From Trypanosoma brucei (lineage: Eukaryota), in assembly GCA_000002445.1 (NCBI GenBank), contig CM000207.1, positions 480,001 to 544,000 on the forward strand: DNA of 64,000 nucleotides, written 5' to 3'. The position numbers were made by a program, and so were the translations under genes. The notes beneath the pieces are model-generated. The model worked only from the letters and a program-made list of their open reading frames with translations. It was not told the origin of the DNA and made no database searches. Positions 2,693 to 64,000 of this stretch are shown piece after piece; the stretch's first letter is position 1; every line of letters starts with the position of its first letter.

Positions 2693-2726
<34 letters not shown>
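2693..2726. repeat. (TA)n microsatellite. Similar tracts lie at 2221-2238, 7851-7879, 11641-11670 and 23031-23048.
   Basis: Perfect dinucleotide runs read directly from the sequence. Confidence 0.95.
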
Positions 2727-7847: not shown

Positions 7848-7881
<34 letters not shown>

Positions 7882-11637: not shown

Positions 11638-11675
<38 letters not shown>

Positions 11676-41183: not shown

Positions 41184-41796
41184 TTACCTCAATACTCGCG
41201 TATGGTTTACTCCACGTTGACACGCGTGGTCACTACCCTCGCAGCCACGTGACGCGCACGAGGAGTTTTAACAATAAAAACTTGATAACTCTCTCCTCTG
41301 CTACTTACACTCTCAAGTAAAAAATTAACACAAACTACTTCCTACCTATTACAGTCAGTGATATGCTTAAAAAGATTAATACCTTTATTCTCTTTTCCTC
41401 TTGTCCTCAGGTTTACAGGAAAATACGAAAGGAATCAATCAATCAATCAACATATAAAGAGGATCAGCATCAACACGCATGCAACAACATGATCATCCAC
41501 GAAAAAACATCACCAAAATCACGAGCAGCCGCAGCTACAATACACACACACAAACACACAGATGCGCAAAAACGTACACCGATACCACCTTTCTATATAT
41601 GTCATAAAACAAGCAGCAACAAAAAAGCAACAGAAAAGACACAAACGCACACAAACACACAGAAATTTAAAAATGTTAAAAAACAAATCCACATAAAAAA
41701 CAGCAACAATATATATGCAAAACAGCACAATCAGCACCAACGTACAGAAGCAATATAAAATATACAAACAACAAAAGCTACACACAAAAAGTCAGT
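39476..41796. repeat. tandem segmental duplication, unit 1 (about 2.3 kb, period 2733 bp)
   Basis: Near-identical to 42209-44529. It covers the 5' ~1.7 kb of the gene plus ~600 bp of upstream A/C-rich spacer. Confidence 0.85.
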
Positions 41797-42176
41797 AAAG
41801 CAAATTAATACGTCATAAACACATAAAACAAACAGCGTAATTGCCGACACATGACGTCACCACAAAGAAGCCGAACCAGATCCAGTGGTAAAGGAGAAAT
41901 CCCATGAATTAGGGTGGCAAACCAAAGATACAAGCAAGAAAGGTGTATAAAGATTGGATACACTTCCAACGCTAACACCATCTAACTGTGAGAAAACAAT
42001 CAGAGGTGCAATTCAATAAGAAATCGCCTGCAGCAGGTAAATAGCATTTTAAAAATGAAAATGCAAAATTAACAAATGAAAGGTTGCAAAGTTACGTAAA
42101 ACTGTTAAACTACAAGCGGTATTTAGGAATAGAAAAAAAAAATTACGACACAACGATAAAGAAACTTTTCAAGGAA

Positions 42177-43916: not shown

Positions 43917-44529
43917 TTACCTCAATACTCGCGTATGGTTTACTCCACGTTGACACGCGTGGTCACTACCCTCGCAGCCACGTGACGCGCACGAGGAGTT
44001 TTAACAATAAAAACTTGATAACTCTCTCCTCTGCTACTTACACTCTCAAGTAAAAAATTAACACAAACTACTTCCTACCTATTACAGTCAGTGATATGCT
44101 TAAAAAGATTAATACCTTTATTCTCTTTTCCTCTTGTCCTCAGGTTTACAGGAAAATACGAAAGGAATCAATCAATCAATCAACATATAAAGAGGATCAG
44201 CATCAACACGCATGCAACAACATGATCATCCACGAAAAAACATCACCAAAATCACGAGCAGCCGCAGCTACAATACACACACACAAACACACAGATGCGC
44301 AAAAACGTACACCGATACCACCTTTCTATATATGTCATAAAACAAGCAGCAACAAAAAAGCAACAGAAAAGAAACAAACGCACACAAACACACAGAAATT
44401 TAAAAATGTTAAAAAACAAATCCACATAAAAAAAAGCAACAATATATATGCAAAACAGCACAATCAGCACCAACGTACAGAAGCAATATAAAATATACAA
44501 ACAACAAAAGCTACACACAAAAAGTCAAT
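42209..44529. repeat. tandem segmental duplication, unit 2
   Basis: See unit 1. Its upstream boundary (44529) coincides with the stop codon of the giant repeat gene. Confidence 0.85.
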
Positions 44530-47500
44530 AAAGCATCCACACAGCAGTGTATGGACACTCGTGGAGACTCTCATCAATATCATCCTTCTTTAGGTTGTGT
44601 GGTGGGGTTATGGTAAATTCAAGTTTTAGCATTTCCTCGCTGTAACTCACCACCAAGTCCTGCACCTGTTCCTCATTAAGATGCAACTGAGCAGCCGTTT
44701 CTTTGGTAAAGGCACTTACGACATCAGGTTTCCTCTTCTCCAAAACATAATCCCAGTCCTCACCCTCAAACCCAACATAGTGTTTCGTCACCGTTCCTGT
44801 TGCAGAAGATGAATCCTTCATCATAGCCGCACGTGCAGCGGAAGCACGTGGCACATATAGTGACCACATCTCAGAGAAGGGGCATGCAGCAAGGGTACTT
44901 AATATATCAGCATCATTTAATGAGCACCCAATGACTTTATAATCAATCAACAGACTTCCGAGTCGGCAATCAATGATAACCGCCTGCTGTGGAGAGACAC
45001 CGAGAACACGCGCAGCGTCATTACGGAATGCGTTCTCCAACCCTTCACGATCACCACTAAGCACAAGATCCCAATCATCTCCCTCAAATTTCTCTGTCAA
45101 TACCGATGACTCCCGTGGTCTAAGTTCATACAGCATCCACACAGCAGTGTATGGACATTCATTAAGACGCTCATCAATATCATCCTTCTTTAAGTTGTGT
45201 GGTGGGGTTATGGTAAATTCAAGTTTTAGCATTTCCTCGCTGTAACTCAGCACCAAGTCCTGCACCTGTTCCTCATTAAGATGCAACTGAGCAGCCGTTT
45301 CTTTGGTAAAGGCACTTACGACATCAGGTTTCCTCTTCTCCAAAACATAATCCCAGTCCTCACCCTCAAACCCAACATAGTGTTTCGTCACCGTTTCTGT
45401 TGCAGAAGATGAATCCTTCATCATAGCCGCACGTGCAGCGGAAGCACGTGGCACATATAGTGACCACACTTCAGAGAAGGGACATGCAGCAAGGGTACTT
45501 AATATATCAGCATCATTTAATGAGCACCCAATGACTTTATAATCAATCAACAGACTTCCGAGTCGGCAATCAATGATAACCACCTGCTGTGGAGAGACAC
45601 CGAGAACACGCGCAGCGTCATTACGGAATGCGTTCTCCAACCCTTCACGATCACCACTAAGCACAAGATCCCAATCATCTCCCTCAAATTTTTCTGTCAA
45701 TACCGATGACTCCCGTGGTCTAGATTCATACAGCATCCACACAGCAGTGTATGGACATTCATTAAGACGCTCATCAATATCATCCTTCTTTAGGTTGTGT
45801 GGTAGGGTTATGGTAAATTCAAGTTTTAGCATTTCCTCGCTGTAACTCACCACCAAGTCCTGCACCTGTTCCTCATTAAGTTGCAACTGAGCAGCCGTTT
45901 CTTTGGTAAAGGCACTTACGACATCAGGTTTCCTCTTCTCCAAAACATAATCCCAGTCCTCACCCTCAAATTCCACGTGGTGTTGCGTAACCGTTTCTGT
46001 TGCAGAAGATGAATCCTTCATCATAGCCGCACGTGCAGCGGAAGCACGTGGCACATATAGTGACCACATCTCAGAGAAGGGACATGCAGCAAGGGTACTT
46101 AATATATCAGCATCATTTAATGAGCTCCCAATGACTTTATAATCAATCAACAGACTTCCGAGTCGGCAATCAATGATAACCACCTGCTGTGGAGAGACAC
46201 CGAGAACACGCGCAGCGTCATTACGGAATGCGTTCTCCAACCCTTCACGATCACCACTAAGCACAAGATCCCAATCATCTCCCTCAAATTTTTCTGTCAA
46301 TACCGATGACTCCCGTGGTCTAGATTCATACAGCATCCACACAGCAGTGTATGGACATTCATTAAGACGCTCATCAATATCATCCTTCTTTAGGTTGTGT
46401 GGTAGGGTTATGGTAAATTCAAGTTTTAGCATTTCCTCGCTGTAACTCACCACCAAGTCCTGCACCTGTTCCTCATTAAGTTGCAACTGAGCAGCCGTTT
46501 CTTTGGTAAAGGCACTTACGACATCAGGTTTCCTCTTCTCCAAAACATAATCCCAGTCCTCACCCTCAAATTCCACGTGGTGTTGCGTAACCGTTTCTGT
46601 TGCAGAAGATGAATCCTCCATCATAGCCGCACGTGCAGCGGAAGCACGTGGCACATATAGTGACCACACCTCAGAGAAGGGACATGCAGCAAGGGTACTT
46701 AATATATCAGCATCATTTAATGAGCTCCCAATGACTTTATAATCAATTAACAGACTTCCGAGTCGGCAATCAATGATAACCACCTGCTGTGGAGAGACAC
46801 CGAGAACACGCGCAGCGTCATTACGGAATGCGTTCTCCAACCCTTCACGATCACCACTAAGCACAAGATCCCAGTCATCTCCCTCAAATTTTTCTGTCAA
46901 TACCGATGACTCCCGTGGTCTAGATTCATACAGCATCCACACAGCAGTGTATGGACATTCATTAAGACGCTCATCAATATCATCCTTCTTTAGGTTGTGT
47001 GGTAGGGTTATGGTAAATTCAAGTTTTAGCATTTCCTCGCTGTAACTCACCACCAAGTCCTGCACCTGTTCCTCATTAAGTTGCAACTGAGCAGCCGTTT
47101 CTTTGGTAAAGGCACTTACGACATCAGGTTTCCTCTTCTCCAAAACATAATCCCAGTCCTCACCCTCAAATTCCACGTGGTGTTGCGTAACCGTTTCTGT
47201 TGCAGAAGATGAATCCTCCATCATAGCCGCACGTGCAGCGGAAGCACGTGGCACATATAGTGACCACATCTCAGAGAAGGGACATGCAGCAAGGGTACTT
47301 AATATATCAGCATCATTTAATGAGCTCCCAATGACTTTATAATCAATCAACAGACTTCCGAGTCGGCAATCAATGATAACCACCTGCTGTGGAGAGACAC
47401 CGAGAACACGCGCAGCGTCATTACGGAATGCGTTCTCCAACCCTTCACGATCACCACTAAGCACAAGATCCCAATCATCTCCCTCAAATTTTTCTGTCAG

Positions 47501-50500
47501 TACCGATGACTCCCGTGGTCTAGATTCATACAGCATCCACACAGCAGTGTATGGACATTCATTAAGACGCTCATCAATATCATCCTTCTTTAGGTTGTGT
47601 GGTAGGGTTATGGTAAATTCAAGTTTTAGCATTTCCTCGCTGTAACTCACCACCAAGTCCTGCACCTGTTCCTCATTAAGTTGCAACTGAGCAGCCGTTT
47701 CTTTGGTAAAGGCACTTACGACATCAGGTTTCCTCTTCTCCAAAACATAATCCCAGTCCTCACCCTCAAATTCCACGTGGTGTTGCGTAACCGTTTCTGT
47801 TGCAGAAGATGAATCCTTCATCATAGCCGCACGTGCAGCGGAAGCACGTGGCACATATAGTGACCACACCTCAGAGAAGGGACATGCAGCAAGGGTACTT
47901 AATATATCAGCATCATTTAATGAGCACCCAATGACTTTATAATCAATCAACAGACTTCCGAGTCGGCAATCAATGATAACCACCTGCTGTGGAGAGACAC
48001 CGAGAACACGCGCAGCGTCATTACGGAATGCGTTCTCCAACCCTTCACGATCACCACTAAGCACAAGATCCCAATCATCTCCCTCAAATTTCTCTGTCAA
48101 TACCGATGACTCCCGTGGTCTAGATTCATACAGCATCCACACAGCAGTGTATGGACATTCATTAAGACGCTCATCAACATCATCCTTCTTTAGGTTGTGT
48201 GGTAGGGTTATGGTAAATTCAAGTTTTAGCATTTCCTCGCTGTAACTCACCACCAAGTCCTGCACCTGTTCCTCATTAAGTTGCAACTGAGCAGCCGTTT
48301 CTTTGGTAAAGGCACTTACGACATCAGGTTTCCTCTTCTCCAAAACATAATCCCAGTCCTCACCCTCAAATTCCACGTGGTGTTGCGTAACCGTTTCTGT
48401 TGCAGAAGATGAATCCTCCATCATAGCCGCACGTGCAGCGGAAGCACGTGGCACATATAGTGACCACACCTCAGAGAAGGGACATGCAGCAAGGGTACTT
48501 AATATATCAGCATCATTTAATGAGCACCCAATGACTTTATAATCAATCAACAGACTTCCGAGTCGGCAATCAATGATAACCACCTGCTGTGGAGAGACAC
48601 CGAGAGCACACGCAGCGTCATTACGGAATGCGTTCTCCAACCCTTCACGATCACCACTAAGCACAAGATCCCAGTCATCTCCCTCAAATTTTTCTGTCAA
48701 TACCGATGACTCCCGTGGTCTAGGTTCATACAGCATCCACACAGCAGTGTATGGACATTCGTGGAGACGCTCATCAATATCATCCTTCTGTAGGTTGTGT
48801 GGTAGGGTTATGGTAAATTCAAGTTTTAGCATTTCCTCGCTGTAACTCACCACCAAGTCCTGCACCTGTTCCTCATTAAGTTGCAACTGAGCAGCCGTTT
48901 CTTTGGTAAAGGCACTTACGACATCAGGTTTCCTCTTCTCCAAAACATAATCCCAGTCCTCACCCTCAAATTCCACGTGGTGTTGCGTAACCGTTTCTGT
49001 TGCAGAAGATGAATCCTCCATCATAGCCGCACGTGCAGCGGAAGCACGTGGCACATATAGTGACCACATCTCAGAGAAGGGACATGCAGCAAGGGTACTT
49101 AATATATCAGCATCATTTAATGAGCACCCAATGACTTTATAATCAATCAACAGACTTCCGAGTCGGCAATCAATGATAACCACCTGCTGTGGAGAGACAC
49201 CGAGAGCACGCGCAGCGTCATTACGGAATGCGTTCTCCAACCCTTCACGATCACCACTAAGCACAAGATCCCAATCATCTCCCTCAAATTTCTCTGTCAA
49301 TACCGATGACTCCCGTGGTCTAGATTCATACAGCATCCACACAGCAGTGTATGGACATTCATTAAGACGCTCATCAATATCATCCTTCTTTAGGTTGTGT
49401 GGTAGGGTTATGGTAAATTCAAGTTTTAGCATTTCCTCGCTGTAACTCACCACCAAGTCCTGCACCTGTTCCTCATTAAGTTGCAACTGAGCAGCCGTTT
49501 CTTTGGTAAAGGCACTTACGACATCAGGTTTCCTCTTCTCCAAAACATAATCCCAGTCCTCACCCTCAAATTCCACGTGGTGTTGCGTAACCGTTTCTGT
49601 TGCAGAAGATGAATCCTCCATCATAGCCGCACGTGCAGCGGAAGCACGTGGCACATATAGTGACCACACCTCAGAGAAGGGACATGCAGCAAGGGTACTT
49701 AATATATCAGCATCATTTAATGAGCACCCAATGACTTTATAATCAATCAACAGACTTCCGAGTCGGCAATCAATGATAACCACCTGCTGTGGAGAGACAC
49801 CGAGAGCACACGCAGCGTCATTACGGAATGCGTTCTCCAACCCTTCACGATCACCACTAAGCACAAGATCCCAATCATCTCCCTCAAATTTCTCTGTCAA
49901 TACCGATGACTCCCGTGGTCTAGATTCATACAGCATCCACACAGCAGTGTATGGACATTCATTAAGACGCTCATCAACATCATCCTTCTTTAGGTTGTGT
50001 GGTAGGGTTATGGTAAATTCAAGTTTTAGCATTTCCTCGCTGTAACTCACCACCAAGTCCTGCACCTGTTCCTCATTAAGTTGCAACTGAGCAGCCGTTT
50101 CTTTGGTAAAGGCACTTACGACATCAGGTTTCCTCTTCTCCAAAACATAATCCCAGTCCTCACCCTCAAATTCCACGTGGTGTTGCGTAACCGTTTCTGT
50201 TGCAGAAGATGAATCCTCCATCATAGCCGCACGTGCAGCGGAAGCACGTGGCACATATAGTGACCACACCTCAGAGAAGGGACATGCAGCAAGGGTACTT
50301 AATATATCAGCATCATTTAATGAGCACCCAGTGACTTTATAATCAATCAACAGACTTCCGAGTCGGCAATCAATGATAACCACCTGCTGTGGAGAGACAC
50401 CGAGAACACGCGCAGCGTCATTACGGAATGCGTTCTCCAACCCTTCACGATCACCACTAAGCACAAGATCCCAATCATCTCCCTCAAATTTTTCTGTCAG

Positions 50501-56500: not shown

Positions 56501-59500
56501 TACCGATGACTCCCGTGGTCTAGATTCATACAGCATCCACACAGCAGTGTATGGACATTCATTAAGACGCTCATCAATATCATCCTTCTTTAGGTTGTGT
56601 GGTGGGGTTATGGTAAATTCAAGTTTTAGCATTTCCTCGCTGTAACTCACCACCAAGTCCTGCACCTGTTCCTCATTAAGTTGCAACTGAGCAGCCGTTT
56701 CTTTGGTAAAGGCACTTACGACATCAGGTTTCCTCTTCTCCAAAACATAATCCCAGTCCTCACCCTCAAATTCCACGTGGTGTTGCGTAACCGTTTCTGT
56801 TGCAGAAGATGAATCCTTCATCATAGCCGCACGTGCAGCGGAAGCACGTGGCACATATAGTGACCACATCTCAGAGAAGGGACATGCAGCAAGGGTACTT
56901 AATATATCAGCATCATTTAATGAGCACCCAATGACTTTATAATCAATCAACAGACTTCCGAGTCGGCAATCAATGATAACCACCTGCTGTGGAGAGACAC
57001 CGAGAACACGCGCAGCGTCATTACGGAATGCGTTCTCCAACCCTTCACGATCACCACTAAGCACAAGATCCCAGTCATCTCCCTCAAATTTTTCTGTCAA
57101 TACCGATGACTCCCGTGGTCTAGATTCATACAGCATCCACACAGCAGTGTATGGACATTCATTAAGACGCTCATCAACATCATCCTTCTTTAGGTTGTGT
57201 GGTAGGGTTATGGTAAATTCAAGTTTTAGCATTTCCTCGCTGTAACTCACCACCAAGTCCTGCACCTGTTCCTCATTAAGTTGCAACTGAGCAGCCGTTT
57301 CTTTGGTAAAGGCACTTACAACATCAGGTTTCCTCTTCTCCAAAACATAATCCCAGTCCTCACCCTCAAATTCCATGTGGTGTTGCGTAACCGTTCCTGT
57401 TGCAGAAGATGAATCCTTCATCATAGCCGCACGTGCAGCGGAAGCACGTGGCACATATAGTGACCACATCTCAGAGAAGGGACATGCAGCAAGGGTACTT
57501 AATATATCAGCATCATTTAATGAGCTCCCAATGACTTTATAATCAATCAACAGACTTCCGAGTCGGCAATCAATGATAACCACCTGCTGTGGAGAGACAC
57601 CGAGAACACGCGCAGCGTCATTACGGAATGCGTTCTCCAACCCTTCACGATCACCACTAAGCACAAGATCCCAGTCATCTCCCTCAAATTTCTCTGTCAA
57701 TACCGATGACTCCCGTGGTCTAGATTCATACAGCATCCACACAGCAGTGTATGGACATTCATTAAGACGCTCATCAATATCATCCTTCTTTAGGTTGTGT
57801 GGTAGGGTTATGGTAAATTCAAGTTTTAGCATTTCCTCGCTGTAACTCACCACCAAGTCCTGCACCTGTTCCTCATTAAGTTGCAACTGAGCAGCCGTTT
57901 CTTTGGTAAAGGCACTTACGACATCAGGTTTCCTCTTCTCCAAAACATAATCCCAGTCCTCACCCTCAAATTCCACGTGGTGTTGCGTAACCGTTTCTGT
58001 TGCAGAAGATGAATCCTCCATCATAGCCGCACGTGCAGCGGAAGCACGTGGCACATATAGTGACCACATCTCAGAGAAGGGGCATGCAGCAAGGGTACTT
58101 AATATATCAGCATCATTTAATGAGCACCCAATGACTTTATAATCAATCAACAGACTTCCGAGTCGGCAATCAATGATAACCACCTGCTGTGGAGAGACAC
58201 CGAGAACACGCGCAGCGTCATTACGGAATGCGTTCTCCAACCCTTCACGATCACCACTAAGCACAAGATCCCAATCATCTCCCTCAAATTTCTCTGTCAA
58301 TACCGATGACTCCCGTGGTCTAGGTTCATACAGCATCCACACAGCAGTGTATGGACATTCGTGGAGACGCTCATCAATATCATCCTTCTTTAGGTTGTGT
58401 GGTGGGGTTATGGTAAATTCAAGTTTTAGCATTTCCTCGCTGTAACTCACCACCAAGTCCTGCACCTGTTCCTCATTAAGTTGCAACTGAGCAGCCGTTT
58501 CTTTGGTAAAGGCACTTACGACATCAGGTTTCCTCTTCTCCAAAACATAATCCCAGTCCTCACCCTCAAATTCCACGTGGTGTTGCGTAACCGTTTCTGT
58601 TGCAGAAGATGAATCCTCCATCATAGCCGCACGTGCAGCGGAAGCACGTGGCACATATAGTGACCACATCTCAGAGAAGGGACATGCAGCAAGGTTACTT
58701 AATATATCAGCATCATTTAATGAGCACCCAATGACTTTATAATCAATCAACAGACTTCCGAGTCGGCAATCAATGATAACCACCTGCTGTGGAGAGACAC
58801 CGAGAACACGCGCAGCGTCATTACGGAATGCGTTCTCCAACCCTTCACGATCACCACTAAGCACAAGATCCCAATCATCTCCCTCAAATTTTTCTGTCAG
58901 TACCGATGACTCCCGTGGTCTAGATTCATACAGCATCCACACAGCAGTGTATGGACATTCATTAAGACGCTCATCAACATCATCCTTCTTTAGGTTGTGT
59001 GGTAGGGTTATGGTAAATTCAAGTTTTAGCATTTCCTCGCTGTAACTCACCACCAAGTCCTGCACCTGTTCCTCATTAAGTTGCAACTGAGCAGCCGTTT
59101 CTTTGGTAAAGGCACTTACGACATCAGGTTTCCTCTTCTCCAAAACATAATCCCAGTCCTCACCCTCAAATTCCACGTGGTGTTGCGTAACCGTTTCTGT
59201 TGCAGAAGATGAATCCTCCATCATAGCCGCACGTGCAGCGGAAGCACGTGGCACATATAGTGACCACACTTCAGAGAAGGGACATGCAGCAAGGGTACTT
59301 AATATATCAGCATCATTTAATGAGCACCCAATGACTTTATAATCAATCAACAGACTTCCGAGTCGGCAATCAATGATAACCACCTGCTGTGGAGAGACAC
59401 CGAGAGCACGCGCAGCGTCATTACGGAATGCGTTCTCCAACCCTTCACGATCACCACTAAGCACAAGATCCCAGTCATCTCCCTCAAATTTCTCTGTCAA

Positions 59501-62500
59501 TACCGATGACTCCCGTGGTCTAGATTCATACAGCATCCACACAGCAGTGTATGGACATTCATTAAGACGCTCATCAATATCATCCTTCTTTAGGTTGTGT
59601 GGTGGGGTTATGGTAAATTCAAGTTTTAGCATTTCCTCGCTGTAACTCACCACCAAGTCCTGCACCTGTTCCTCATTAAGTTGCAACTGAGCAGCCGTTT
59701 CTTTGGTAAAGGCACTTACGACATCAGGTTTCCTCTTCTCCAAAACATAATCCCAGTCCTCACCCTCAAATTCCACGTGGTGTTGCGTAACCGTTTCTGT
59801 TGCAGAAGATGAATCCTTCATCATAGCCGCACGTGCAGCGGAAGCACGTGGCACATATAGTGACCACATCTCAGAGAAGGGACATGCAGCAAGGGTACTT
59901 AATATATCAGCATCATTTAATGAGCACCCAATGACTTTATAATCAATCAACAGACTTCCGAGTCGGCAATCAATGATAACCACCTGCTGTGGAGAGACAC
60001 CGAGAGCACACGCAGCGTCATTACGGAATGCGTTCTCCAACCCTTCACGATCACCACTAAGCACAAGATCCCAATCATCTCCCTCAAATTTCTCTGTCAA
60101 TACCGATGACTCCCGTGGTCTAGATTCATACAGCATCCACACAGCAGTGTATGGACATTCATTAAGACGCTCATCAATATCATCCTTCTTTAGGTTGTGT
60201 GGTAGGGTTATGGTAAATTCAAGTTTTAGCATTTCCTCGCTGTAACTCACCACCAAGTCCTGCACCTGTTCCTCATTAAGTTGCAACTGAGCAGCCGTTT
60301 CTTTGGTAAAGGCACTTACGACATCAGGTTTCCTCTTCTCCAAAACATAATCCCAGTCCTCACCCTCAAATTCCATGTGGTGTTGCGTAACCGTTTCTGT
60401 TGCAGAAGATGAATCCTCCATCATAGCCGCACGTGCAGCGGAAGCACGTGGCACATATAGTGACCACACCTCAGAGAAGGGACATGCAGCAAGGGTACTT
60501 AATATATCAGCATCATTTAATGAGCACCCAATGACTTTATAATCAATCAACAGACTTCCGAGTCGGCAATCAATGATAACCACCTGCTGTGGAGAGACAC
60601 CGAGAACACGCGCAGCGTCATTACGGAATGCGTTCTCCAACCCTTCACGATCACCACTAAGCACAAGATCCCAATCATCTCCCTCAAATTTTTCTGTCAG
60701 TACCGATGACTCCCGTGGTCTAGATTCATACAGCATCCACACAGCAGTGTATGGACATTCATTAAGACGCTCATCAATATCATCCTTCTTTAGGTTGTGT
60801 GGTAGGGTTATGGTAAATTCAAGTTTTAGCATTTCCTCGCTGTAACTCACCACCAAGTCCTGCACCTGTTCCTCATTAAGTTGCAACTGAGCAGCCGTTT
60901 CTTTGGTAAAGGCACTTACGACATCAGGTTTCCTCTTCTCCAAAACATAATCCCAGTCCTCACCCTCAAATTCCACGTGGTGTTGCGTAACCGTTTCTGT
61001 TGCAGAAGATGAATCCTTCATCATAGCCGCACGTGCAGCGGAAGCACGTGGCACATATAGTGACCACACTTCAGAGAAGGGACATGCAGCAAGGGTACTT
61101 AATATATCAGCATCATTTAATGAGCACCCAATGACTTTATAATCAATCAACAGACTTCCGAGTCGGCAATCAATGATAACCACCTGCTGTGGAGAGACAC
61201 CGAGAGCACGCGCAGCGTCATTACGGAATGCGTTCTCCAACCCTTCACGATCACCACTAAGCACAAGATCCCAGTCATCTCCCTCAAATTTCTCTGTCAA
61301 TACCGATGACTCCCGTGGTCTAGATTCATACAGCATCCACACAGCAGTGTATGGACATTCATTAAGACGCTCATCAATATCATCCTTCTTTAGGTTGTGT
61401 GGTAGGGTTATGGTAAATTCAAGTTTTAGCATTTCCTCGCTGTAACTCACCACCAAGTCCTGCACCTGTTCCTCATTAAGTTGCAACTGAGCAGCCGTTT
61501 CTTTGGTAAAGGCACTTACGACATCAGGTTTCCTCTTCTCCAAAACATAATCCCAGTCCTCACCCTCAAATTCCACGTGGTGTTGCGTAACCGTTTCTGT
61601 TGCAGAAGATGAATCCTCCATCATAGCCGCACGTGCAGCGGAAGCACGTGGCACATATAGTGACCACATCTCAGAGAAGGGACATGCAGCAAGGGTACTT
61701 AATATATCAGCATCATTTAATGAGCACCCAATGACTTTATAATCAATCAACAGACTTCCGAGTCGGCAATCAATGATAACCACCTGCTGTGGAGAGACAC
61801 CGAGAGCACGCGCAGCGTCATTACGGAATGCGTTCTCCAACCCTTCACGATCACCACTAAGCACAAGATCCCAATCATCTCCCTCAAATTTTTCTGTCAA
61901 TACCGATGACTCCCGTGGTCTAGATTCATACAGCATCCACACAGCAGTGTATGGACATTCATTAAGACGCTCATCAACATCATCCTTCTTTAGGTTGTGT
62001 GGTAGGGTTATGGTAAATTCAAGTTTTAGCATTTCCTCGCTGTAACTCACCACCAAGTCCTGCACCTGTTCCTCATTAAGTTGCAACTGAGCAGCCGTTT
62101 CTTTGGTAAAGGCACTTACGACATCAGGTTTCCTCTTCTCCAAAACATAATCCCAGTCCTCACCCTCAAATTCCACGTGGTGTTGCGTAACCGTTTCTGT
62201 TGCAGAAGATGAATCCTCCATCATAGCCGCACGTGCAGCGGAAGCACGTGGCACATATAGTGACCACACTTCAGAGAAGGGACATGCAGCAAGGGTACTT
62301 AATATATCAGCATCATTTAATGAGCACCCAATGACTTTATAATCAATCAACAGACTTCCGAGTCGGCAATCAATGATAACCACCTGCTGTGGAGAGACAC
62401 CGAGAACACGCGCAGCGTCATTACGGAATGCGTTCTCCAACCCTTCACGATCACCACTAAGCACAAGATCCCAGTCATCTCCCTCAAATTTTTCTGTCAA

Positions 62501-64000
62501 TACCGATGACTCCCGTGGTCTAGATTCATACAGCATCCACACAGCAGTGTATGGACATTCATTAAGACGCTCATCAATATCATCCTTCTTTAGGTTGTGT
62601 GGTGGGGTTATGGTAAATTCAAGTTTTAGCATTTCCTCGCTGTAACTCACCACCAAGTCCTGCACCTGTTCCTCATTAAGTTGCAACTGAGCAGCCGTTT
62701 CTTTGGTAAAGGCACTTACGACATCAGGTTTCCTCTTCTCCAAAACATAATCCCAGTCCTCACCCTCAAATTCCACGTGGTGTTGCGTAACCGTTCCTGT
62801 TGCAGAAGATGAATCCTTCATCATAGCCGCACGTGCAGCGGAAGCACGTGGCACATATAGTGACCACATCTCAGAGAAGGGACATGCAGCAAGGGTACTT
62901 AATATATCAGCATCATTTAATGAGCACCCAATGACTTTATAATCAATCAACAGACTTCCGAGTCGGCAATCAATGATAACCACCTGCTGTGGAGAGACAC
63001 CGAGAACACGCGCAGCGTCATTACGGAATGCGTTCTCCAACCCTTCACGATCACCACTAAGCACAAGATCCCAGTCATCTCCCTCAAATTTTTCTGTCAA
63101 TACCGATGACTCCCGTGGTCTAGATTCATACAGCATCCACACAGCAGTGTATGGACATTCATTAAGACGCTCATCAACATCATCCTTCTTTAGGTTGTGT
63201 GGTGGGGTTATGGTAAATTCAAGTTTTAGCATTTCCTCGCTGTAACTCACCACCAAGTCCTGCACCTGTTCCTCATTAAGTTGCAACTGAGCAGCCGTTT
63301 CTTTGGTAAAGGCACTTACGACATCAGGTTTCCTCTTCTCCAAAACATAATCCCAGTCCTCACCCTCAAATTCCACGTGGTGTTGCGTAACCGTTTCTGT
63401 TGCAGAAGATGAATCCTTCATCATAGCCGCACGTGCAGCGGAAGCACGTGGCACATATAGTGACCACATCTCAGAGAAGGGGCATGCAGCAAGGGTACTT
63501 AATATATCAGCATCATTTAATGAGCACCCAATGACTTTATAATCAATCAACAGACTTCCGAGTCGGCAATCAATGATAACCACCTGCTGTGGAGAGACAC
63601 CGAGAACACGCGCAGCGTCATTACGGAATGCGTTCTCCAACCCTTCACGATCACCACTAAGCACAAGATCCCAATCATCTCCCTCAAATTTTTCTGTCAA
63701 TACCGATGACTCCCGTGGTCTAGATTCATACAGCATCCACACAGCAGTGTATGGACATTCATTAAGACGCTCATCAATATCATCCTTCTTTAGGTTGTGT
63801 GGTGGGGTTATGGTAAATTCAAGTTTTAGCATTTCCTCGCTGTAACTCACCACCAAGTCCTGCACCTGTTCCTCATTAAGTTGCAACTGAGCAGCCGTTT
63901 CTTTGGTAAAGGCACTTACGACATCAGGTTTCCTCTTCTCCAAAACATAATCCCAGTCCTCACCCTCAAATTCCATGTGGTGTTGCGTAACCGTTCCTGT
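44525..64000 (-). CDS. giant repetitive protein, partial. At least 6483 aa lie in the window and the 5' end is beyond it. It is built of 200-aa tandem units.
   Basis: A single uninterrupted minus-strand ORF runs across more than 19.4 kb. There are 32 units such as ...VEFEGEDWDYVLEKRKPDVV...ECPYTAVWMLYESRPRESSVLTEKFEGDDWDLVLSGDREG...CPFSEMWSLYVPRASAARAAMMKDSSSATETVTQHH. The stop codon is at 44525-44527. Confidence 0.8.
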   Translation of the reverse strand, partial: TGTVTQHHMEFEGEDWDYVLEKRKPDVVSAFTKETAAQLQLNEEQVQDLVVSYSEEMLKLEFTITPPHNLKKDDIDERLNECPYTAVWMLYESRPRESSVLTEKFEGDDWDLVLSGDREGLENAFRNDAARVLGVSPQQVVIIDCRLGSLLIDYKVIGCSLNDADILSTLAACPFSEMWSLYVPRASAARAAMMKDSSSATETVTQHHVEFEGEDWDYVLEKRKPDVVSAFTKETAAQLQLNEEQVQDLVVSYSEEMLKLEFTITPPHNLKKDDVDERLNECPYTAVWMLYESRPRESSVLTEKFEGDDWDLVLSGDREGLENAFRNDAARVLGVSPQQVVIIDCRLGSLLIDYKVIGCSLNDADILSTLAACPFSEMWSLYVPRASAARAAMMKDSSSATGTVTQHHVEFEGEDWDYVLEKRKPDVVSAFTKETAAQLQLNEEQVQDLVVSYSEEMLKLEFTITPPHNLKKDDIDERLNECPYTAVWMLYESRPRESSVLTEKFEGDDWDLVLSGDREGLENAFRNDAARVLGVSPQQVVIIDCRLGSLLIDYKVIGCSLNDADILSTLAACPFSEVWSLYVPRASAARAAMMEDSSSATETVTQHHVEFEGEDWDYVLEKRKPDVVSAFTKETAAQLQLNEEQVQDLVVSYSEEMLKLEFTITLPHNLKKDDVDERLNECPYTAVWMLYESRPRESSVLTEKFEGDDWDLVLSGDREGLENAFRNDAARALGVSPQQVVIIDCRLGSLLIDYKVIGCSLNDADILSTLAACPFSEMWSLYVPRASAARAAMMEDSSSATETVTQHHVEFEGEDWDYVLEKRKPDVVSAFTKETAAQLQLNEEQVQDLVVSYSEEMLKLEFTITLPHNLKKDDIDERLNECPYTAVWMLYESRPRESSVLTEKFEGDDWDLVLSGDREGLENAFRNDAARALGVSPQQVVIIDCRLGSLLIDYKVIGCSLNDADILSTLAACPFSEVWSLYVPRASAARAAMMKDSSSATETVTQHHVEFEGEDWDYVLEKRKPDVVSAFTKETAAQLQLNEEQVQDLVVSYSEEMLKLEFTITLPHNLKKDDIDERLNECPYTAVWMLYESRPRESSVLTEKFEGDDWDLVLSGDREGLENAFRNDAARVLGVSPQQVVIIDCRLGSLLIDYKVIGCSLNDADILSTLAACPFSEVWSLYVPRASAARAAMMEDSSSATETVTQHHMEFEGEDWDYVLEKRKPDVVSAFTKETAAQLQLNEEQVQDLVVSYSEEMLKLEFTITLPHNLKKDDIDERLNECPYTAVWMLYESRPRESSVLTEKFEGDDWDLVLSGDREGLENAFRNDAACALGVSPQQVVIIDCRLGSLLIDYKVIGCSLNDADILSTLAACPFSEMWSLYVPRASAARAAMMKDSSSATETVTQHHVEFEGEDWDYVLEKRKPDVVSAFTKETAAQLQLNEEQVQDLVVSYSEEMLKLEFTITPPHNLKKDDIDERLNECPYTAVWMLYESRPRESSVLTEKFEGDDWDLVLSGDREGLENAFRNDAARALGVSPQQVVIIDCRLGSLLIDYKVIGCSLNDADILSTLAACPFSEVWSLYVPRASAARAAMMEDSSSATETVTQHHVEFEGEDWDYVLEKRKPDVVSAFTKETAAQLQLNEEQVQDLVVSYSEEMLKLEFTITLPHNLKKDDVDERLNECPYTAVWMLYESRPRESSVLTEKFEGDDWDLVLSGDREGLENAFRNDAARVLGVSPQQVVIIDCRLGSLLIDYKVIGCSLNDADILSNLAACPFSEMWSLYVPRASAARAAMMEDSSSATETVTQHHVEFEGEDWDYVLEKRKPDVVSAFTKETAAQLQLNEEQVQDLVVSYSEEMLKLEFTITPPHNLKKDDIDERLHECPYTAVWMLYEPRPRESSVLTEKFEGDDWDLVLSGDREGLENAFRNDAARVLGVSPQQVVIIDCRLGSLLIDYKVIGCSLNDADILSTLAACPFSEMWSLYVPRASAARAAMMEDSSSATETVTQHHVEFEGEDWDYVLEKRKPDVVSAFTKETAAQLQLNEEQVQDLVVSYSEEMLKLEFTITLPHNLKKDDIDERLNECPYTAVWMLYESRPRESSVLTEKFEGDDWDLVLSGDREGLENAFRNDAARVLGVSPQQVVIIDCRLGSLLIDYKVIGSSLNDADILSTLAACPFSEMWSLYVPRASAARAAMMKDSSSATGTVTQHHMEFEGEDWDYVLEKRKPDVVSAFTKETAAQLQLNEEQVQDLVVSYSEEMLKLEFTITLPHNLKKDDVDERLNECPYTAVWMLYESRPRESSVLTEKFEGDDWDLVLSGDREGLENAFRNDAARVLGVSPQQVVIIDCRLGSLLIDYKVIGCSLNDADILSTLAACPFSEMWSLYVPRASAARAAMMKDSSSATETVTQHHVEFEGEDWDYVLEKRKPDVVSAFTKETAAQLQLNEEQVQDLVVSYSEEMLKLEFTITPPHNLKKDDIDERLNECPYTAVWMLYESRPRESSVLTEKFEGDDWDLVLSGDREGLENAFRNDAARVLGVSPQQVVIIDCRLGSLLIDYKVIGCSLNDADILSTLAACPFSEVWSLYVPRASAARAAMMKDSSSATETVTQHHVEFEGEDWDYVLEKRKPDVVSAFTKETAAQLQLNEEQVQDLVVSYSEEMLKLEFTITPPHNLKKDDIDERLNECPYTAVWMLYESRPRESSVLTEKFEGDDWDLVLSGDREGLENAFRNDAARVLGVSPQQVVIIDCRLGSLLIDYKVIGCSLNDADILSTLAACPFSEMWSLYVPRASAARAAMMKDSSSATETVTQHHVEFEGEDWDYVLEKRKPDVVSAFTKETAAQLQLNEEQVQDLVVSYSEEMLKLEFTITLPHNLKKDDIDERLNECPYTAVWMLYESRPRESSVLTEKFEGDDWDLVLSGDREGLENAFRNDAARVLGVSPQQVVIIDCRLGSLLIDYKVIGCSLNDSDILSTLAACPFSEMWSLYVPRASAARAAMMKDSSSATETVTQHHVEFEGEDWDYVLEKRKPDVVSAFTKETAAQLQLNEEQVQDLVVSYSEEMLKLEFTITPPHNLKKDDIDERLNECPYTAVWMLYESRPRESSVLTEKFEGDDWDLVLSGDREGLENAFRNDAARVLGVSPQQVVIIDCRLGSLLIDYKVIGCSLNDADILSTLAACPFSEVWSLYVPRASAARAAMMKDSSSATETVTQHHVEFEGEDWDYVLEKRKPDVVSAFTKETAAQLQLNEEQVQDLVVSYSEEMLKLEFTITPPHNLKKDDIDERLNECPYTAVWMLYESRPRESSVLTEKFEGDDWDLVLSGDREGLENAFRNDAARVLGVSPQQVVIIDCRLGSLLIDYKVIGRSLNDSDILSTLAACPFSEMWSLYVPRASAARAAMMKDSSSATGTVTKHYVGFEGEDWDYVLEKRKPDVVSAFTKETAAQLHLNEEQVQDLVLSYSEEMLKLEFTITPPHNLKKDDIDERLNECPYTAVWMLYESRPRESSVLTEKFEGDDWDLVLSGDREGLENAFRNDAARVLGVSPQQVVIIDCRLGSLLIDYKVIGCSLNDADILSTLAACPFSEMWSLYVPRASAARAAMMKDSSSATETVTQHHVEFEGEDWDYVLEKRKPDVVSAFTKETAAQLQLNEEQVQDLVVSYSEEMLKLEFTITPPHNLKKDDIDERLHECPYTAVWMLYEPRPRESSVLTEKFEGDDWDLVLSGDREGLENAFRNDAARVLGVSPQQVVIIDCRLGSLLIDYKVIGSSLNDADILSTLAACPFSEVWSLYVPRASAARAAMMEDSSSATETVTQHHVEFEGEDWDYVLEKRKPDVVSAFTKETAAQLQLNEEQVQDLVVSYSEEMLKLEFTITLPHNLKKDDIDERLNECPYTAVWMLYESRPRESSVLTEKFEGDDWDLVLSGDREGLENAFRNDAARVLGVSPQQVVIIDCRLGSLLIDYKVIGCSLNDADILSTLAACPFSEVWSLYVPRASAARAAMMKDSSSATETVTQHHVEFEGEDWDYVLEKRKPDVVSAFTKETAAQLQLNEEQVQDLVVSYSEEMLKLEFTITLPHNLKKDDVDERLNECPYTAVWMLYESRPRESSVLTEKFEGDDWDLVLSGDREGLENAFRNDAARALGVSPQQVVIIDCRLGSLLIDYKVIGCSLNDADILSTLAACPFSEVWSLYVPRASAARAAMMKDSSSATETVTQHHVEFEGEDWDYVLEKRKPDVVSAFTKETAAQLQLNEEQVQDLVVSYSEEMLKLEFTITLPHNLKKDDVDERLNECPYTAVWMLYESRPRESSVLTEKFEGDDWDLVLSGDREGLENAFRNDAARALGVSPQQVVIIDCRLGSLLIDYKVIGCSLNDADILSNLAACPFSEVWSLYVPRASAARAAMMEDSSSATETVTQHHVEFEGEDWDYVLEKRKPDVVSAFTKETAAQLQLNEEQVQDLVVSYSEEMLKLEFTITPPHNLKKDDIDERLHECPYTAVWMLYEPRPRESSVLTEKFEGDDWDLVLSGDREGLENAFRNDAARVLGVSPQQVVIIDCRLGSLLIDYKVTGCSLNDADILSTLAACPFSEVWSLYVPRASAARAAMMEDSSSATETVTQHHVEFEGEDWDYVLEKRKPDVVSAFTKETAAQLQLNEEQVQDLVVSYSEEMLKLEFTITLPHNLKKDDVDERLNECPYTAVWMLYESRPRESSVLTEKFEGDDWDLVLSGDREGLENAFRNDAACALGVSPQQVVIIDCRLGSLLIDYKVIGCSLNDADILSTLAACPFSEVWSLYVPRASAARAAMMEDSSSATETVTQHHVEFEGEDWDYVLEKRKPDVVSAFTKETAAQLQLNEEQVQDLVVSYSEEMLKLEFTITLPHNLKKDDIDERLNECPYTAVWMLYESRPRESSVLTEKFEGDDWDLVLSGDREGLENAFRNDAARALGVSPQQVVIIDCRLGSLLIDYKVIGCSLNDADILSTLAACPFSEMWSLYVPRASAARAAMMEDSSSATETVTQHHVEFEGEDWDYVLEKRKPDVVSAFTKETAAQLQLNEEQVQDLVVSYSEEMLKLEFTITLPHNLQKDDIDERLHECPYTAVWMLYEPRPRESSVLTEKFEGDDWDLVLSGDREGLENAFRNDAACALGVSPQQVVIIDCRLGSLLIDYKVIGCSLNDADILSTLAACPFSEVWSLYVPRASAARAAMMEDSSSATETVTQHHVEFEGEDWDYVLEKRKPDVVSAFTKETAAQLQLNEEQVQDLVVSYSEEMLKLEFTITLPHNLKKDDVDERLNECPYTAVWMLYESRPRESSVLTEKFEGDDWDLVLSGDREGLENAFRNDAARVLGVSPQQVVIIDCRLGSLLIDYKVIGCSLNDADILSTLAACPFSEVWSLYVPRASAARAAMMKDSSSATETVTQHHVEFEGEDWDYVLEKRKPDVVSAFTKETAAQLQLNEEQVQDLVVSYSEEMLKLEFTITLPHNLKKDDIDERLNECPYTAVWMLYESRPRESSVLTEKFEGDDWDLVLSGDREGLENAFRNDAARVLGVSPQQVVIIDCRLGSLLIDYKVIGSSLNDADILSTLAACPFSEMWSLYVPRASAARAAMMEDSSSATETVTQHHVEFEGEDWDYVLEKRKPDVVSAFTKETAAQLQLNEEQVQDLVVSYSEEMLKLEFTITLPHNLKKDDIDERLNECPYTAVWMLYESRPRESSVLTEKFEGDDWDLVLSGDREGLENAFRNDAARVLGVSPQQVVIIDCRLGSLLIDYKVIGSSLNDADILSTLAACPFSEVWSLYVPRASAARAAMMEDSSSATETVTQHHVEFEGEDWDYVLEKRKPDVVSAFTKETAAQLQLNEEQVQDLVVSYSEEMLKLEFTITLPHNLKKDDIDERLNECPYTAVWMLYESRPRESSVLTEKFEGDDWDLVLSGDREGLENAFRNDAARVLGVSPQQVVIIDCRLGSLLIDYKVIGSSLNDADILSTLAACPFSEMWSLYVPRASAARAAMMKDSSSATETVTQHHVEFEGEDWDYVLEKRKPDVVSAFTKETAAQLQLNEEQVQDLVVSYSEEMLKLEFTITLPHNLKKDDIDERLNECPYTAVWMLYESRPRESSVLTEKFEGDDWDLVLSGDREGLENAFRNDAARVLGVSPQQVVIIDCRLGSLLIDYKVIGCSLNDADILSTLAACPFSEVWSLYVPRASAARAAMMKDSSSATETVTKHYVGFEGEDWDYVLEKRKPDVVSAFTKETAAQLHLNEEQVQDLVLSYSEEMLKLEFTITPPHNLKKDDIDERLNECPYTAVWMLYELRPRESSVLTEKFEGDDWDLVLSGDREGLENAFRNDAARVLGVSPQQAVIIDCRLGSLLIDYKVIGCSLNDADILSTLAACPFSEMWSLYVPRASAARAAMMKDSSSATGTVTKHYVGFEGEDWDYVLEKRKPDVVSAFTKETAAQLHLNEEQVQDLVVSYSEEMLKLEFTITPPHNLKKDDIDESLHECPYTAVWMLY
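44530..64000. repeat. 600-bp tandem repeat array (at least 32.5 units) with exact period. It is coding, on the minus strand.
   Basis: The antisense 90-aa ORFs recur exactly every 600 bp from 44973 to 63573 with no indels. The units are about 98-99% identical at the nucleotide level. Confidence 0.95.

What the first reader, a model, noticed from the sequence alone, without database searches (positions are those of the whole stretch)
44530..64000. Exact 600-bp phase over more than 19 kb, with a SNP mosaic pointing to concerted evolution, and a risk of assembly collapse
All 32 unit boundaries fall exactly 600 bp apart, with no indel anywhere. Units differ only by a small set of recurring point variants, for example ESRP versus EPRP with LNE versus LHE, QHHVE versus KHYVG, MMK versus MME, and GC versus GS. 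These are shuffled among units without higher-order periodicity, as expected from unequal crossover or gene conversion. The two C-terminal-most units (44.5-45.7 kb) and one internal unit (about 53.7 kb) share a distinct subtype (KHYVG/QLHLN, plus a changed third-position block). Such arrays are routinely mis-sized in short-read assemblies, so the true copy number is uncertain.
Basis: seen in the sequence. Interest (0 to 1): 0.5.

Follow-up and report, generated by a model that had tools for sequence, protein, structure and literature searches.

The report
Repeat array of trypanosome GB4 gene
The 600-bp repeat array is real, but it is the already described repetitive part of GB4, the largest gene of Trypanosoma brucei, which encodes a giant cytoskeletal protein at the posterior tip of the cell; so this is a well-characterised curiosity, not a discovery.

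Summary
On the minus strand, 44525..64000 is one uninterrupted reading frame of 6,491 codons. It holds 32 full 600-nt units plus a 273-nt partial unit that ends at a TGA stop. There are no indels and only 37 variable columns. The frame runs off the window at 64000.

The window is T. brucei TREU927 chromosome 9, and the gene is GB4 (Tb09.160.1200, 8,214 aa). The literature already describes it as 2,256 nt of unique sequence plus 37 repeats of 600 nt. Each 200-aa unit holds two Pfam FAZ1_cons domains, here called types A and B.

- 133 of 378 site pairs fail the four-gamete test.
- Linkage between variants is lost beyond about 50 bp.
- There is no higher-order periodicity.
- The 3'-terminal units are the most divergent.
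- A and B types are orthologous across Trypanosoma species, yet units are about 98.7% identical within T. brucei, and the repeat period differs by lineage (200, 205, 303 and 313 aa).

The assembly-collapse worry could not be tested here. However, every unit is unique and all 800-mers are unique, so Sanger or long reads can resolve the array. Short reads cannot.

Verdict: already known, low interest. One side lead: orthologue N-termini and the two downstream paralogues carry a dynein-like microtubule-binding stalk.

The parts
44525..64000 (-). C-terminal 6,491 codons plus the stop of the GB4 ORF (Tb09.160.1200). The frame is open to the window edge, so the 5' part of the gene lies beyond 64000.
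   Evidence: Searches show a single open frame. One search gives the 18-aa perfect repeat VVIIDCRLGSLLIDYKVI reported for Tb09.160.1200; it occurs 30 times here. One search places the neighbours in TREU927 chromosome 9.
44801..64000 (-). 32 full 600-nt repeat units in exact register. Each encodes 200 aa, made of a FAZ1_cons domain of type A followed by one of type B.
   Evidence: 600-nt spacing, 37 variable columns, no indels. PF23398 hit with 4 stretches in 400 aa, 317.7 bits against a cutoff of 27.5.
44528..44800 (-). Truncated last unit (273 nt). It is a complete A domain of the divergent KHYVG subtype, with 18 differences from the consensus.
44525..44527 (-). TGA stop codon. Repeat homology ends abruptly here, and the T-rich 3' UTR downstream is unrelated to the unit.
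44801..45400 (-). Last full unit, of the terminal subtype (KHYVG, QLHLN, LVLSY). It is the most divergent full unit, with 16 differences from the consensus.
53201..53800 (-). Internal unit whose first ~150-200 nt carry the terminal subtype. The shared sites are 11-150, and the rest of the unit is generic. This looks like a short conversion tract.
63101..63400 (-). Example A-type FAZ1_cons domain (first 100 codons of the unit at 62801-63400).
   Evidence: and the AF2 model (beta-alpha-beta-beta-alpha-alpha).
62801..63100 (-). Example B-type FAZ1_cons domain (second 100 codons of the same unit).
43917..44524 (-). GB4 3' UTR and intergenic region. It is also the upstream part of a 2.3-kb tandem duplication.
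   Evidence: The published 3' UTR is about 272 nt.
42177..43916 (-). Truncated paralogue (579 aa) with one FAZ1_cons domain and a dynein-MTBD-like segment. It is context, not part of the array.
38901..41183 (-). Full-length paralogue (760-aa ORF; 757 aa in the database as P0031) with one FAZ1_cons domain.

Best explanation
The region is the repetitive 3' nine-tenths of GB4 (Gb4, Tb09.160.1200), the longest ORF of Trypanosoma brucei. GB4 is a roughly 928-kDa cytoskeletal protein that marks the posterior end of the subpellicular microtubule corset, where the microtubule plus ends lie.

Protein level:
- Each 600-nt unit encodes two ~95-aa FAZ1_cons domains, types A and B. Each is a small beta-alpha-beta-beta-alpha fold.
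- The whole protein is therefore inferred to be a string of about 75 acidic globular domains. By inference from orthologues, this string hangs from an N-terminal coiled-coil stalk with a dynein-like microtubule-binding domain.

DNA level:
- The array stays in exact 600-nt register because recombination between units is homology-guided and in register.
- Any frameshift, or any indel that disrupts a domain, in this single giant ORF would be selected against.
- Repeated short-tract gene conversion or unequal sister-chromatid exchange homogenises the units and shuffles the few segregating variants. The edge units escape most of this.

Shown here: the identity of the gene, the domain content, the in-phase array, the mosaic statistics and the cross-species pattern. 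Inferred: the recombination mechanism, the beads-on-a-string shape and the role of the N-terminal MTBD. The biological function of the repeats themselves is unknown.
For: Identity:
- Five neighbouring proteins are exact matches to T. brucei TREU927 entries EAN76330-76342 on a 3,057,547-bp contig.
- The published perfect repeat of Tb09.160.1200, '35 x VVIIDCRLGSLLIDYKVI' in 8,214 aa (PMC2254594), occurs 30 times in the window part.
- Kramer 2017 describes GB4 as 2,256 nt unique plus 22,388 nt, that is 37 repeats of 600 nt (PMC5397161).
- The protein has been detected by mass spectrometry at 928 kDa (PMC3545838).
- It localises to the posterior tip or plus ends (PMC12871344; Leishmania orthologue).

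Domains:
- PF23398 FAZ1_cons, 317.7 bits, four stretches per 400 aa.
- AF2 model with pLDDT 86 shows two beta-alpha-beta-beta-alpha-alpha domains.
- The unit has pI 4.4.

Array dynamics:
- No indels and 37 variable columns.
- 133 of 378 site pairs fail the four-gamete test, with Rm of at least 9.
- Linkage is gone beyond about 50 bp.
- pN/pS is 0.43, so there is purifying selection.
- Edge units are the most divergent.
- A/B orthology across species contrasts with within-species homogeneity.
- Repeat periods are lineage-specific at 200, 205, 303 and 313 aa.

N-terminal MTBD in orthologues: a profile hits dynein stalk/MTBD structures at E = 6.5e-21.
Against: - The variants show no spatial autocorrelation along the array. 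Simple unequal crossover would be expected to leave neighbouring units more alike. So either conversion is distance-independent, or part of the mosaic is an assembly or haplotype-merging artefact.
- The unit count and order come from one Sanger reference assembly and were not checked against independent reads.
- T. brucei GB4's own N-terminus lies outside the window, so the MTBD is only inferred from orthologues.
- The repeats are acidic, so they are unlikely to bind the acidic tubulin surface themselves. A 2021 paper states that their function is unknown (PMC8625193).
Confidence: 0.9

Rival explanations
1. The array is real, but the fine-scale SNP mosaic, and possibly the unit number and order, are partly artefacts. 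Near-identical Sanger reads may have been mis-placed, or the two alleles of a heterozygous diploid may have been merged into chimeric units.
For: Variants more than 50 bp apart are essentially unlinked (r2 about 0.03). There is no neighbour similarity or lag structure, which is what random read placement would also give. Only 38% of 250-mers and 75% of 400-mers are unique. Gb4 orthologues in T. vivax, T. grayi and T. cruzi marinkellei sit as 'partial' genes on contigs of 1.5-3.6 kb, and the T. theileri orthologue is also annotated partial. The Lister 427 'tmp' ORF length is identical to TREU927's. I believe from memory that this assembly was reference-guided, so it is probably not an independent confirmation.
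Against: All 32 units are distinct, 99.6% of 600-mers and all 800-mers are unique, and the longest exact repeat is 640 nt. Sanger reads with mate pairs can therefore tile the array. The 19.5-kb frame has no frameshift or stop, which argues for high base-level quality. Tightly linked variant blocks (236/237/239 with 276; the 9-site subtype block) are preserved intact.
Confidence: 0.2
2. A single recent burst of amplification was followed by independent point mutation in each unit, with no ongoing exchange between units.
For: Overall divergence is low (1.3%) and 8 variants are singletons.
Against: 29 of 37 variable columns are shared by several units in incompatible combinations: 133 four-gamete failures, some between sites 18-26 bp apart. 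Under this model that would need massive recurrent mutation. The A-B unit type predates the T. brucei/T. vivax/T. cruzi splits, so the array architecture is old while the units are young.
Confidence: 0.05
3. The variants are kept by diversifying selection. Different units would be functionally specialised, for example as antigenic or binding variants.
For: 23 of 38 segregating variants change the amino acid. GB4-family proteins are described as antigens in some trypanosomatid serology papers, seen only as search listings.
Against: pN/pS is 0.43, below 1. The protein is intracellular and cytoskeletal. Variant positions follow no ordered pattern along the array.
Confidence: 0.03

Closest known systems
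GB4 / Gb4 microtubule-associated repetitive protein of T. brucei (Tb09.160.1200; Rindisbacher, Hemphill & Seebeck 1993; Kramer 2017)
   Same: It is the same gene: same organism and chromosome context, same 600-nt unit and ORF architecture, and the same 18-aa perfect repeat.
   Different: Nothing differs in kind. The window shows only 32.5 of the published ~37.3 units and lacks the 752-aa unique N-terminus. The per-unit variant, linkage and resolvability statistics reported here did not turn up in the papers I could read.
FAZ1_cons (PF23398, formerly Pfam-B 506) domain family of kinetoplastid cytoskeletal proteins (FAZ1, FAZ8, FLAM8, PFC20, Tb927.10.870, GB4)
   Same: Every half-unit is a full-length match to the Pfam model. 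Sunter 2015 lists GB4 among the nine T. brucei proteins with this domain.
   Different: I did not analyse the other T. brucei family members. The two paralogues in this window carry one copy each, and homologues in Leishmaniinae and Phytomonas carry many diverged copies. GB4 carries about 75 near-identical copies in strict A-B alternation.
Other giant repetitive trypanosome cytoskeletal proteins: MARP-1/2 (38-aa repeats), FAZ10, T. cruzi H49/calpain-like protein (68-aa repeats), Tb927.1.1740 'FUTSCH'
   Same: They are also very large and cytoskeleton-associated, with tandem near-identical repeats that are hard to assemble.
   Different: Their repeats are short (14-68 aa) and are described in the literature as coiled-coil or otherwise lacking known domains. 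The GB4 unit is 200 aa and folds into two globular domains. The MARP repeats bind microtubules directly, whereas the function of the GB4 repeats is unknown.
Mucin MUC16 (tandem SEA-domain repeats), an architectural analogy only
Classical concerted evolution of tandem arrays (rDNA, satellite DNA, other coding repeat arrays)
   Same: Units are homogeneous within a species and divergent between species, edge units are divergent, and variants are shared in a recombinant mosaic.
   Different: There is no neighbour-similarity gradient inside the array. The array lies inside one ORF, so phase is additionally enforced by selection on the reading frame.

Membership tests
GB4 (Tb09.160.1200) gene of T. 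brucei | Located on T. brucei chromosome 9 in the TREU927 gene context | tested here: met
   Five flanking proteins are exact matches to EAN76330, EAN76333, EAN76339, EAN76340 and EAN76342 on a 3,057,547-bp contig.
GB4 (Tb09.160.1200) gene of T. brucei | Tandem 600-nt (200-aa) repeats forming the 3' end of the ORF, with a short 3' UTR | tested here: met
   compared with the description in PMC5397161.
GB4 (Tb09.160.1200) gene of T. brucei | Contains the published perfect repeat VVIIDCRLGSLLIDYKVI (35 copies in the full protein) | tested here: met
   There are 30 exact copies in the 32.5 units visible. The published figure is in PMC2254594.
GB4 (Tb09.160.1200) gene of T. brucei | Full length of 8,214 aa, made of a 752-aa unique N-terminus plus about 37 units | not testable with these tools
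   The ORF runs off the window at 64000. The full protein was not retrievable from the protein databases.
GB4 (Tb09.160.1200) gene of T. brucei | [quoted passage not shown] | not testable with these tools
   Literature only.
Pfam PF23398 FAZ1_cons domain family | Score above the Pfam gathering threshold over the full model length | tested here: met
   317.7 bits against 27.5; model positions 2-93 of 93; four stretches in two units.
Array under concerted evolution | Units more alike within a species than orthologous unit types are between species | tested here: met
   98.7% nucleotide identity within T. brucei. T. vivax B copies are 98% identical. Cross-species identity is 40-48% for A-A and 45-51% for B-B, while A versus B is 30%.
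Array under concerted evolution | Evidence of exchange between units (recombinant variant combinations) | tested here: met
   133 of 378 four-gamete failures, Rm of at least 9. Linkage decays within about 50 bp. Caveat: an assembly artefact is not excluded.
Array under concerted evolution | Edge units escape homogenisation | tested here: met
   At the 3' edge, the last full unit has 16 differences and the partial unit 18 of 276, against 1-11 elsewhere. The T. vivax terminal copy is only 36% identical to its internal copy. The 5' edge is outside the window.
Array under concerted evolution | Copy-number polymorphism between alleles or strains | not testable with these tools
   No independent T. 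brucei assemblies or reads were reachable.
Collapsed or mis-sized assembly of a tandem array | Read depth, or spanning long reads, disagree with the assembled copy number | not testable with these tools
   Only a resolvability proxy could be computed: unique k-mer fraction is 17% at 150 nt, 99.6% at 600 nt and 100% at 800 nt.
Dynein heavy-chain stalk/MTBD-like domain (PF12777) in GB4-family N-termini | Significant sequence match to the dynein stalk and microtubule-binding domain | tested here: inconclusive
   The orthologue profile hits dynein MTBD structures at E = 6.5e-21. Pfam itself is sub-threshold (22.3 against 24 bits). The window paralogues link only transitively (E = 7e-10 to P0044; own profile E = 0.055). 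T. brucei GB4's N-terminus is not in the window.

The most novel reading that the evidence does not exclude
The variant pattern may be real rather than an assembly artefact: linkage lost within about 50 bp, no similarity gradient between neighbouring units, and one internal unit carrying a ~150-200-nt tract of the terminal subtype. If so, it would imply unusually frequent, very short-tract, distance-independent gene conversion inside a 22-kb coding array of T. brucei. GB4 would then be a natural single-locus recorder of mitotic homologous recombination, the same machinery that builds mosaic VSG genes. Array length and variant order could also serve as a fast strain marker.
Probability: 0.2. 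Interest if true: 0.4.

Novelty: already known. Interest (0 to 1): 0.15.

Why it matters
It matters little as a discovery. GB4 and its 37 x 600-nt repeats have been in the literature since 1993 and are used as a tool: smFISH along the whole mRNA, and a posterior-tip marker.

Three practical points come out of the check:
1. The array can be tiled uniquely by reads of 800 nt or more but not by short reads. Copy number and unit order in short-read trypanosomatid assemblies should therefore not be trusted, and three of the four orthologue genes examined end on 1.5-3.6-kb contigs.
2. The variant statistics give a concrete, testable baseline for intra-array recombination in a diploid, mostly clonal parasite.
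3. The domain-level picture gives a testable model for a protein whose repeats have no known function: about 75 acidic SEA/ferredoxin-like FAZ1_cons domains, with a dynein-like microtubule-binding stalk in orthologue N-termini and in the two neighbouring paralogues.

Tried and rejected
- TRF found nothing because its longest period is 500. The repeat finder and an in-register comparison were used instead.
- The word-indexed protein search with one unit returned only an Angomonas 'Gb4' protein. Neither it nor the exhaustive representative search returned T. brucei GB4 itself, so the N-terminus and full length could not be examined directly.
- I tried to fetch independent T. brucei contigs around the 3' end of the array by exact look-up of the downstream paralogues (757-, 579- and 576-aa versions). 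All three failed, so no cross-strain copy-number or unit-order comparison was possible.
- The original 1993 paper is not held.
- Higher-order repeat structure: rejected (lags 1-28).
- Neighbour clustering of variants: rejected (p about 0.3).
- Degenerate repeat remnants in the 3' UTR or elsewhere in the window: none.
- Coding potential on the plus strand: only a mechanical 90-aa antisense ORF that recurs once per unit.
- Diversifying selection: rejected (pN/pS 0.43).
- The prokaryote-oriented tools (promoter/terminator scan, phage/plasmid/E. coli BLAST, Rfam) were not used, because the window is a kinetoplastid polycistron.
Full report
**1. Observation**

The window's only long frame in 44.5-64 kb is on the minus strand. 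It is open from base 64000 down to a TGA at 44525-44527, which is 6,491 codons. TRF missed the array because its longest period is 500.

The repeat finder shows copies spaced exactly 600 nt apart. Cutting the coding strand every 600 nt from the window edge gives 32 full units plus a 273-nt partial unit before the stop. The 32 full units differ at only 37 of 600 columns (29 recurring, 8 singletons). There are therefore no indels anywhere.

- ESRP/EPRP is perfectly linked to LNE/LHE in 4 full units.
- MMK/MME splits 18:14.
- GC/GS/GR splits 26:5:1.
- The KHYVG/QLHLN subtype is found in the last full unit (44801-45400), the truncated last unit (44528-44800) and one internal unit (53201-53800).

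Two corrections apply. The array is cut by the window edge rather than ending at 64000. The subtype units span 44.5-45.4 kb.

**2. Identity**

All sizeable ORFs lie on the minus strand, the layout of a kinetoplastid polycistron. Five neighbouring proteins are exact matches to Trypanosoma brucei brucei TREU927 entries EAN76330-EAN76342 on a 3,057,547-bp contig, which is chromosome 9.

A 400-aa stretch of two units contains four full-length Pfam PF23398 'FAZ1 conserved domain' matches, scoring 317.7 bits against a cutoff of 27.5. So each unit holds two such domains, which I call A and B. The only hit of the word-indexed protein search was an Angomonas protein named 'microtubule-associated protein Gb4'.

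The literature settles the identity:
- Tb09.160.1200 'Gb4' is 8,214 aa and holds '35 x VVIIDCRLGSLLIDYKVI' (PMC2254594). That 18-mer occurs 30 times in the window part.
- Kramer (PMC5397161) describes GB4 as the longest T. brucei ORF: 2,256 nt unique plus 22,388 nt, which is 37 repeats of 600 nt, with a 3' UTR of about 272 nt.
- The 928-kDa protein has been seen by mass spectrometry (PMC3545838).
- It is used as a marker of the posterior tip and microtubule plus ends (PMC12871344). The Leishmania orthologue is peripheral and posterior-biased.

By subtraction, about 4.9 more units and the 752-aa unique N-terminus lie beyond base 64000. The feature is therefore already known.

**3. Anatomy of the array**

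- All 32 units are distinct at nucleotide level (29 distinct at protein level). Mean pairwise difference is 7.8 nt, or 1.3%.
- Of 38 segregating variants, 23 are non-synonymous and 15 synonymous. This gives pN/pS of 0.43, with 28 transitions and 10 transversions. That indicates moderate purifying selection, not diversifying selection.
- The array ends abruptly. The last unit stops right after a complete A domain, and the T-rich 3' UTR has no similarity to the unit. No unit-like DNA occurs elsewhere in the window.
- The unit is acidic, with pI 4.4.
- An AlphaFold2 model of one unit, built on a thin alignment, has mean pLDDT 86. It gives two beta-alpha-beta-beta-alpha-alpha domains.

**4. Testing the concerted-evolution interpretation**

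Within the array:
- 133 of 378 pairs of informative sites show all four allele combinations, giving a minimum of 9 exchange events. Some of these pairs are only 18-26 bp apart.
- With the two subtype units removed, mean r2 drops from 0.61 (<10 bp) to 0.28 (10-50 bp) and about 0.03 beyond 50 bp.
- The 3' edge units are the most divergent: 16 differences in the last full unit and 18 of 276 in the partial unit, against 1-11 elsewhere.
- The internal subtype unit shares a tract covering sites 11-150 (possibly to 196) with the terminal units and is otherwise generic. This looks like a short conversion tract.
- There is no higher-order periodicity (lags 1-28). Neighbours are not significantly more alike than random pairs.

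Between species:
- The exhaustive search found 92 homologues. The best are only 28-44% identical.
- Named orthologues are T. vivax, T. cruzi marinkellei, T. theileri and T. grayi 'Gb4, partial'.
- T. brucei A is closest to the A-type domains of T. c. marinkellei (48%) and T. vivax (40%).
- T. brucei B is closest to their B-types (51% and 45-47%).
- A versus B within T. brucei is only 30%, and the T. vivax B copies are 98% identical to each other.
- The repeat period is 200 aa in T. brucei, 205 in T. vivax, 303 in T. c. marinkellei and 313 in T. grayi.

An old A/B architecture combined with young, lineage-homogeneous units is the classical signature of concerted evolution or turnover. A single recent amplification followed by independent mutation is not compatible with the recombinant mosaic.

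**5. Testing the assembly-collapse concern**

This could not be tested directly. Exact look-ups meant to pull independent T. brucei contigs around the 3' end of the array all failed.

What can be said from the sequence:
- The longest exact repeat inside the array is 640 nt.
- The fraction of unique k-mers is 17% at 150 nt, 38% at 250 nt, 75% at 400 nt, 99.6% at 600 nt and 100% at 800 nt or more.
- Short reads cannot resolve the array, but Sanger reads with mates or long reads can. The window comes from the Sanger-era TREU927 reference.
- A 19.5-kb frame without a single frameshift argues for good base-level quality.

Reasons to keep the caution:
- The near-absence of linkage beyond 50 bp and the lack of neighbour similarity are also what mis-placed reads or merged alleles would produce.
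- The published 427 'tmp' ORF length (24,645 nt) equals the TREU927 length. I believe, from memory, that this assembly was reference-guided, so it is probably not an independent count.
- Three orthologues sit on 1.5-3.6-kb contigs and all four are annotated partial.

I put about 0.2 on a partial-artefact reading of the mosaic.

**6. How it most likely works**

Shown: the array encodes some 65 (in the window) of about 75 tandem FAZ1_cons domains in strict A-B alternation, within a single giant ORF.

Inferred, DNA level: register is kept because recombination between units is homology-guided and in register. Any frameshift or domain-breaking indel in this ORF would also be selected against. Conversion or unequal sister-chromatid exchange homogenises interior units and shuffles variants.

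Inferred, protein level: an extended, acidic beads-on-a-string rod. A 2021 paper states that the repeats themselves have no known function (PMC8625193).

A side lead bears on how the protein is anchored:
- The conserved N-terminal region of Gb4 orthologues is a clear homologue of the dynein heavy-chain coiled-coil stalk plus microtubule-binding domain. A profile search against the PDB gives E = 6.5e-21 to yeast dynein, and also hits isolated MTBD structures. Pfam PF12777 is just sub-threshold in T. theileri Gb4.
- The two paralogues immediately downstream of GB4 in this window share that segment with the orthologues (35% identity, E = 7e-10). Their own family profile reaches dynein only weakly (E = 0.055).
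- T. brucei GB4's N-terminus lies outside the window, so an MTBD in GB4 itself is inferred, not shown.
- Phyre2 'dynein stalk' predictions have been reported for FAZ1, FAZ2 and FAZ10 (PMC7394968). That passage does not mention GB4.

**7. Comparison and verdict**

This is GB4 itself, a member of the FAZ1_cons (formerly Pfam-B 506) family. Sunter 2015 lists that domain in nine T. brucei cytoskeletal proteins, GB4 among them.

It differs from other giant trypanosome repeat proteins (MARPs, FAZ10, H49, 'FUTSCH') in that its unit is long and, in the AF2 model, folds into two globular domains. Architecturally it resembles MUC16's tandem SEA repeats, but that is analogy only.

Novelty: already known. 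Interest: low, at 0.15. The per-unit variant, LD and resolvability statistics and the MTBD lead are modest additions. The most novel reading still open is that the mosaic is real and reports very frequent short-tract conversion (probability about 0.2).

Noticed in passing
window 39471-41802 and 42201-44535: A 2.3-kb direct tandem duplication at 97% identity. It produced a truncated 579-aa copy (42177-43916, minus strand) of a 760-aa gene carrying a FAZ1_cons domain (38901-41183, minus strand); the proteins are 94% identical over 572 aa. The upstream end of the duplicated segment falls within about 10 nt of the GB4 stop codon, so the array end and the duplication breakpoint coincide.
   Followed up: partly
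Gb4 orthologues P0044 aa ~70-290, P0047, P0037, P0039, P0043; window paralogues aa ~131-195 (about 40600-40790 and 43330-43520, minus strand): The conserved N-terminal region of Gb4-family proteins is homologous to the dynein heavy-chain stalk and microtubule-binding domain (profile against the PDB, E = 6.5e-21). Pfam PF12777 is just below threshold. The window paralogues link to it transitively (E = 7e-10) and only weakly on their own (E = 0.055). This would explain microtubule binding without involving the acidic repeats.
   Followed up: partly
window 44973-63845, plus strand, every 600 nt: A 90-aa ATG-initiated antisense ORF recurs once per unit (32 copies). It is a mechanical by-product of the repeat, and nothing suggests that it is expressed.
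   Followed up: no
P0040 (T. vivax Gb4 fragment), aa 354-439: The last domain copy before the end of the T. vivax fragment is strongly degenerate: 36% identical to the internal A copy, while the internal B copies are 98% identical to each other. This mirrors the divergent 3'-terminal units in T. brucei.
   Followed up: no
P0037 (Porcisia hertigi), P0038, P0039, P0041, P0043 (Phytomonas sp. EM1): In Leishmaniinae and Phytomonas the homologues carry many diverged FAZ1_cons domains (about 28% identity to the T. brucei unit) rather than one amplified pair. The Porcisia protein has its own near-identical multi-domain repeats with periods of 285, 322 and 607 aa, which points to independent amplifications.
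   Followed up: partly
window 2693-2726, 7850-7879, 11640-11670: Perfect (AT)15-17 microsatellites. The plus strand also has a persistently negative GC skew across the whole window, strongest (-0.17 to -0.24) over the array, consistent with one long minus-strand transcription unit.
   Followed up: no
[not shown]
   Followed up: partly
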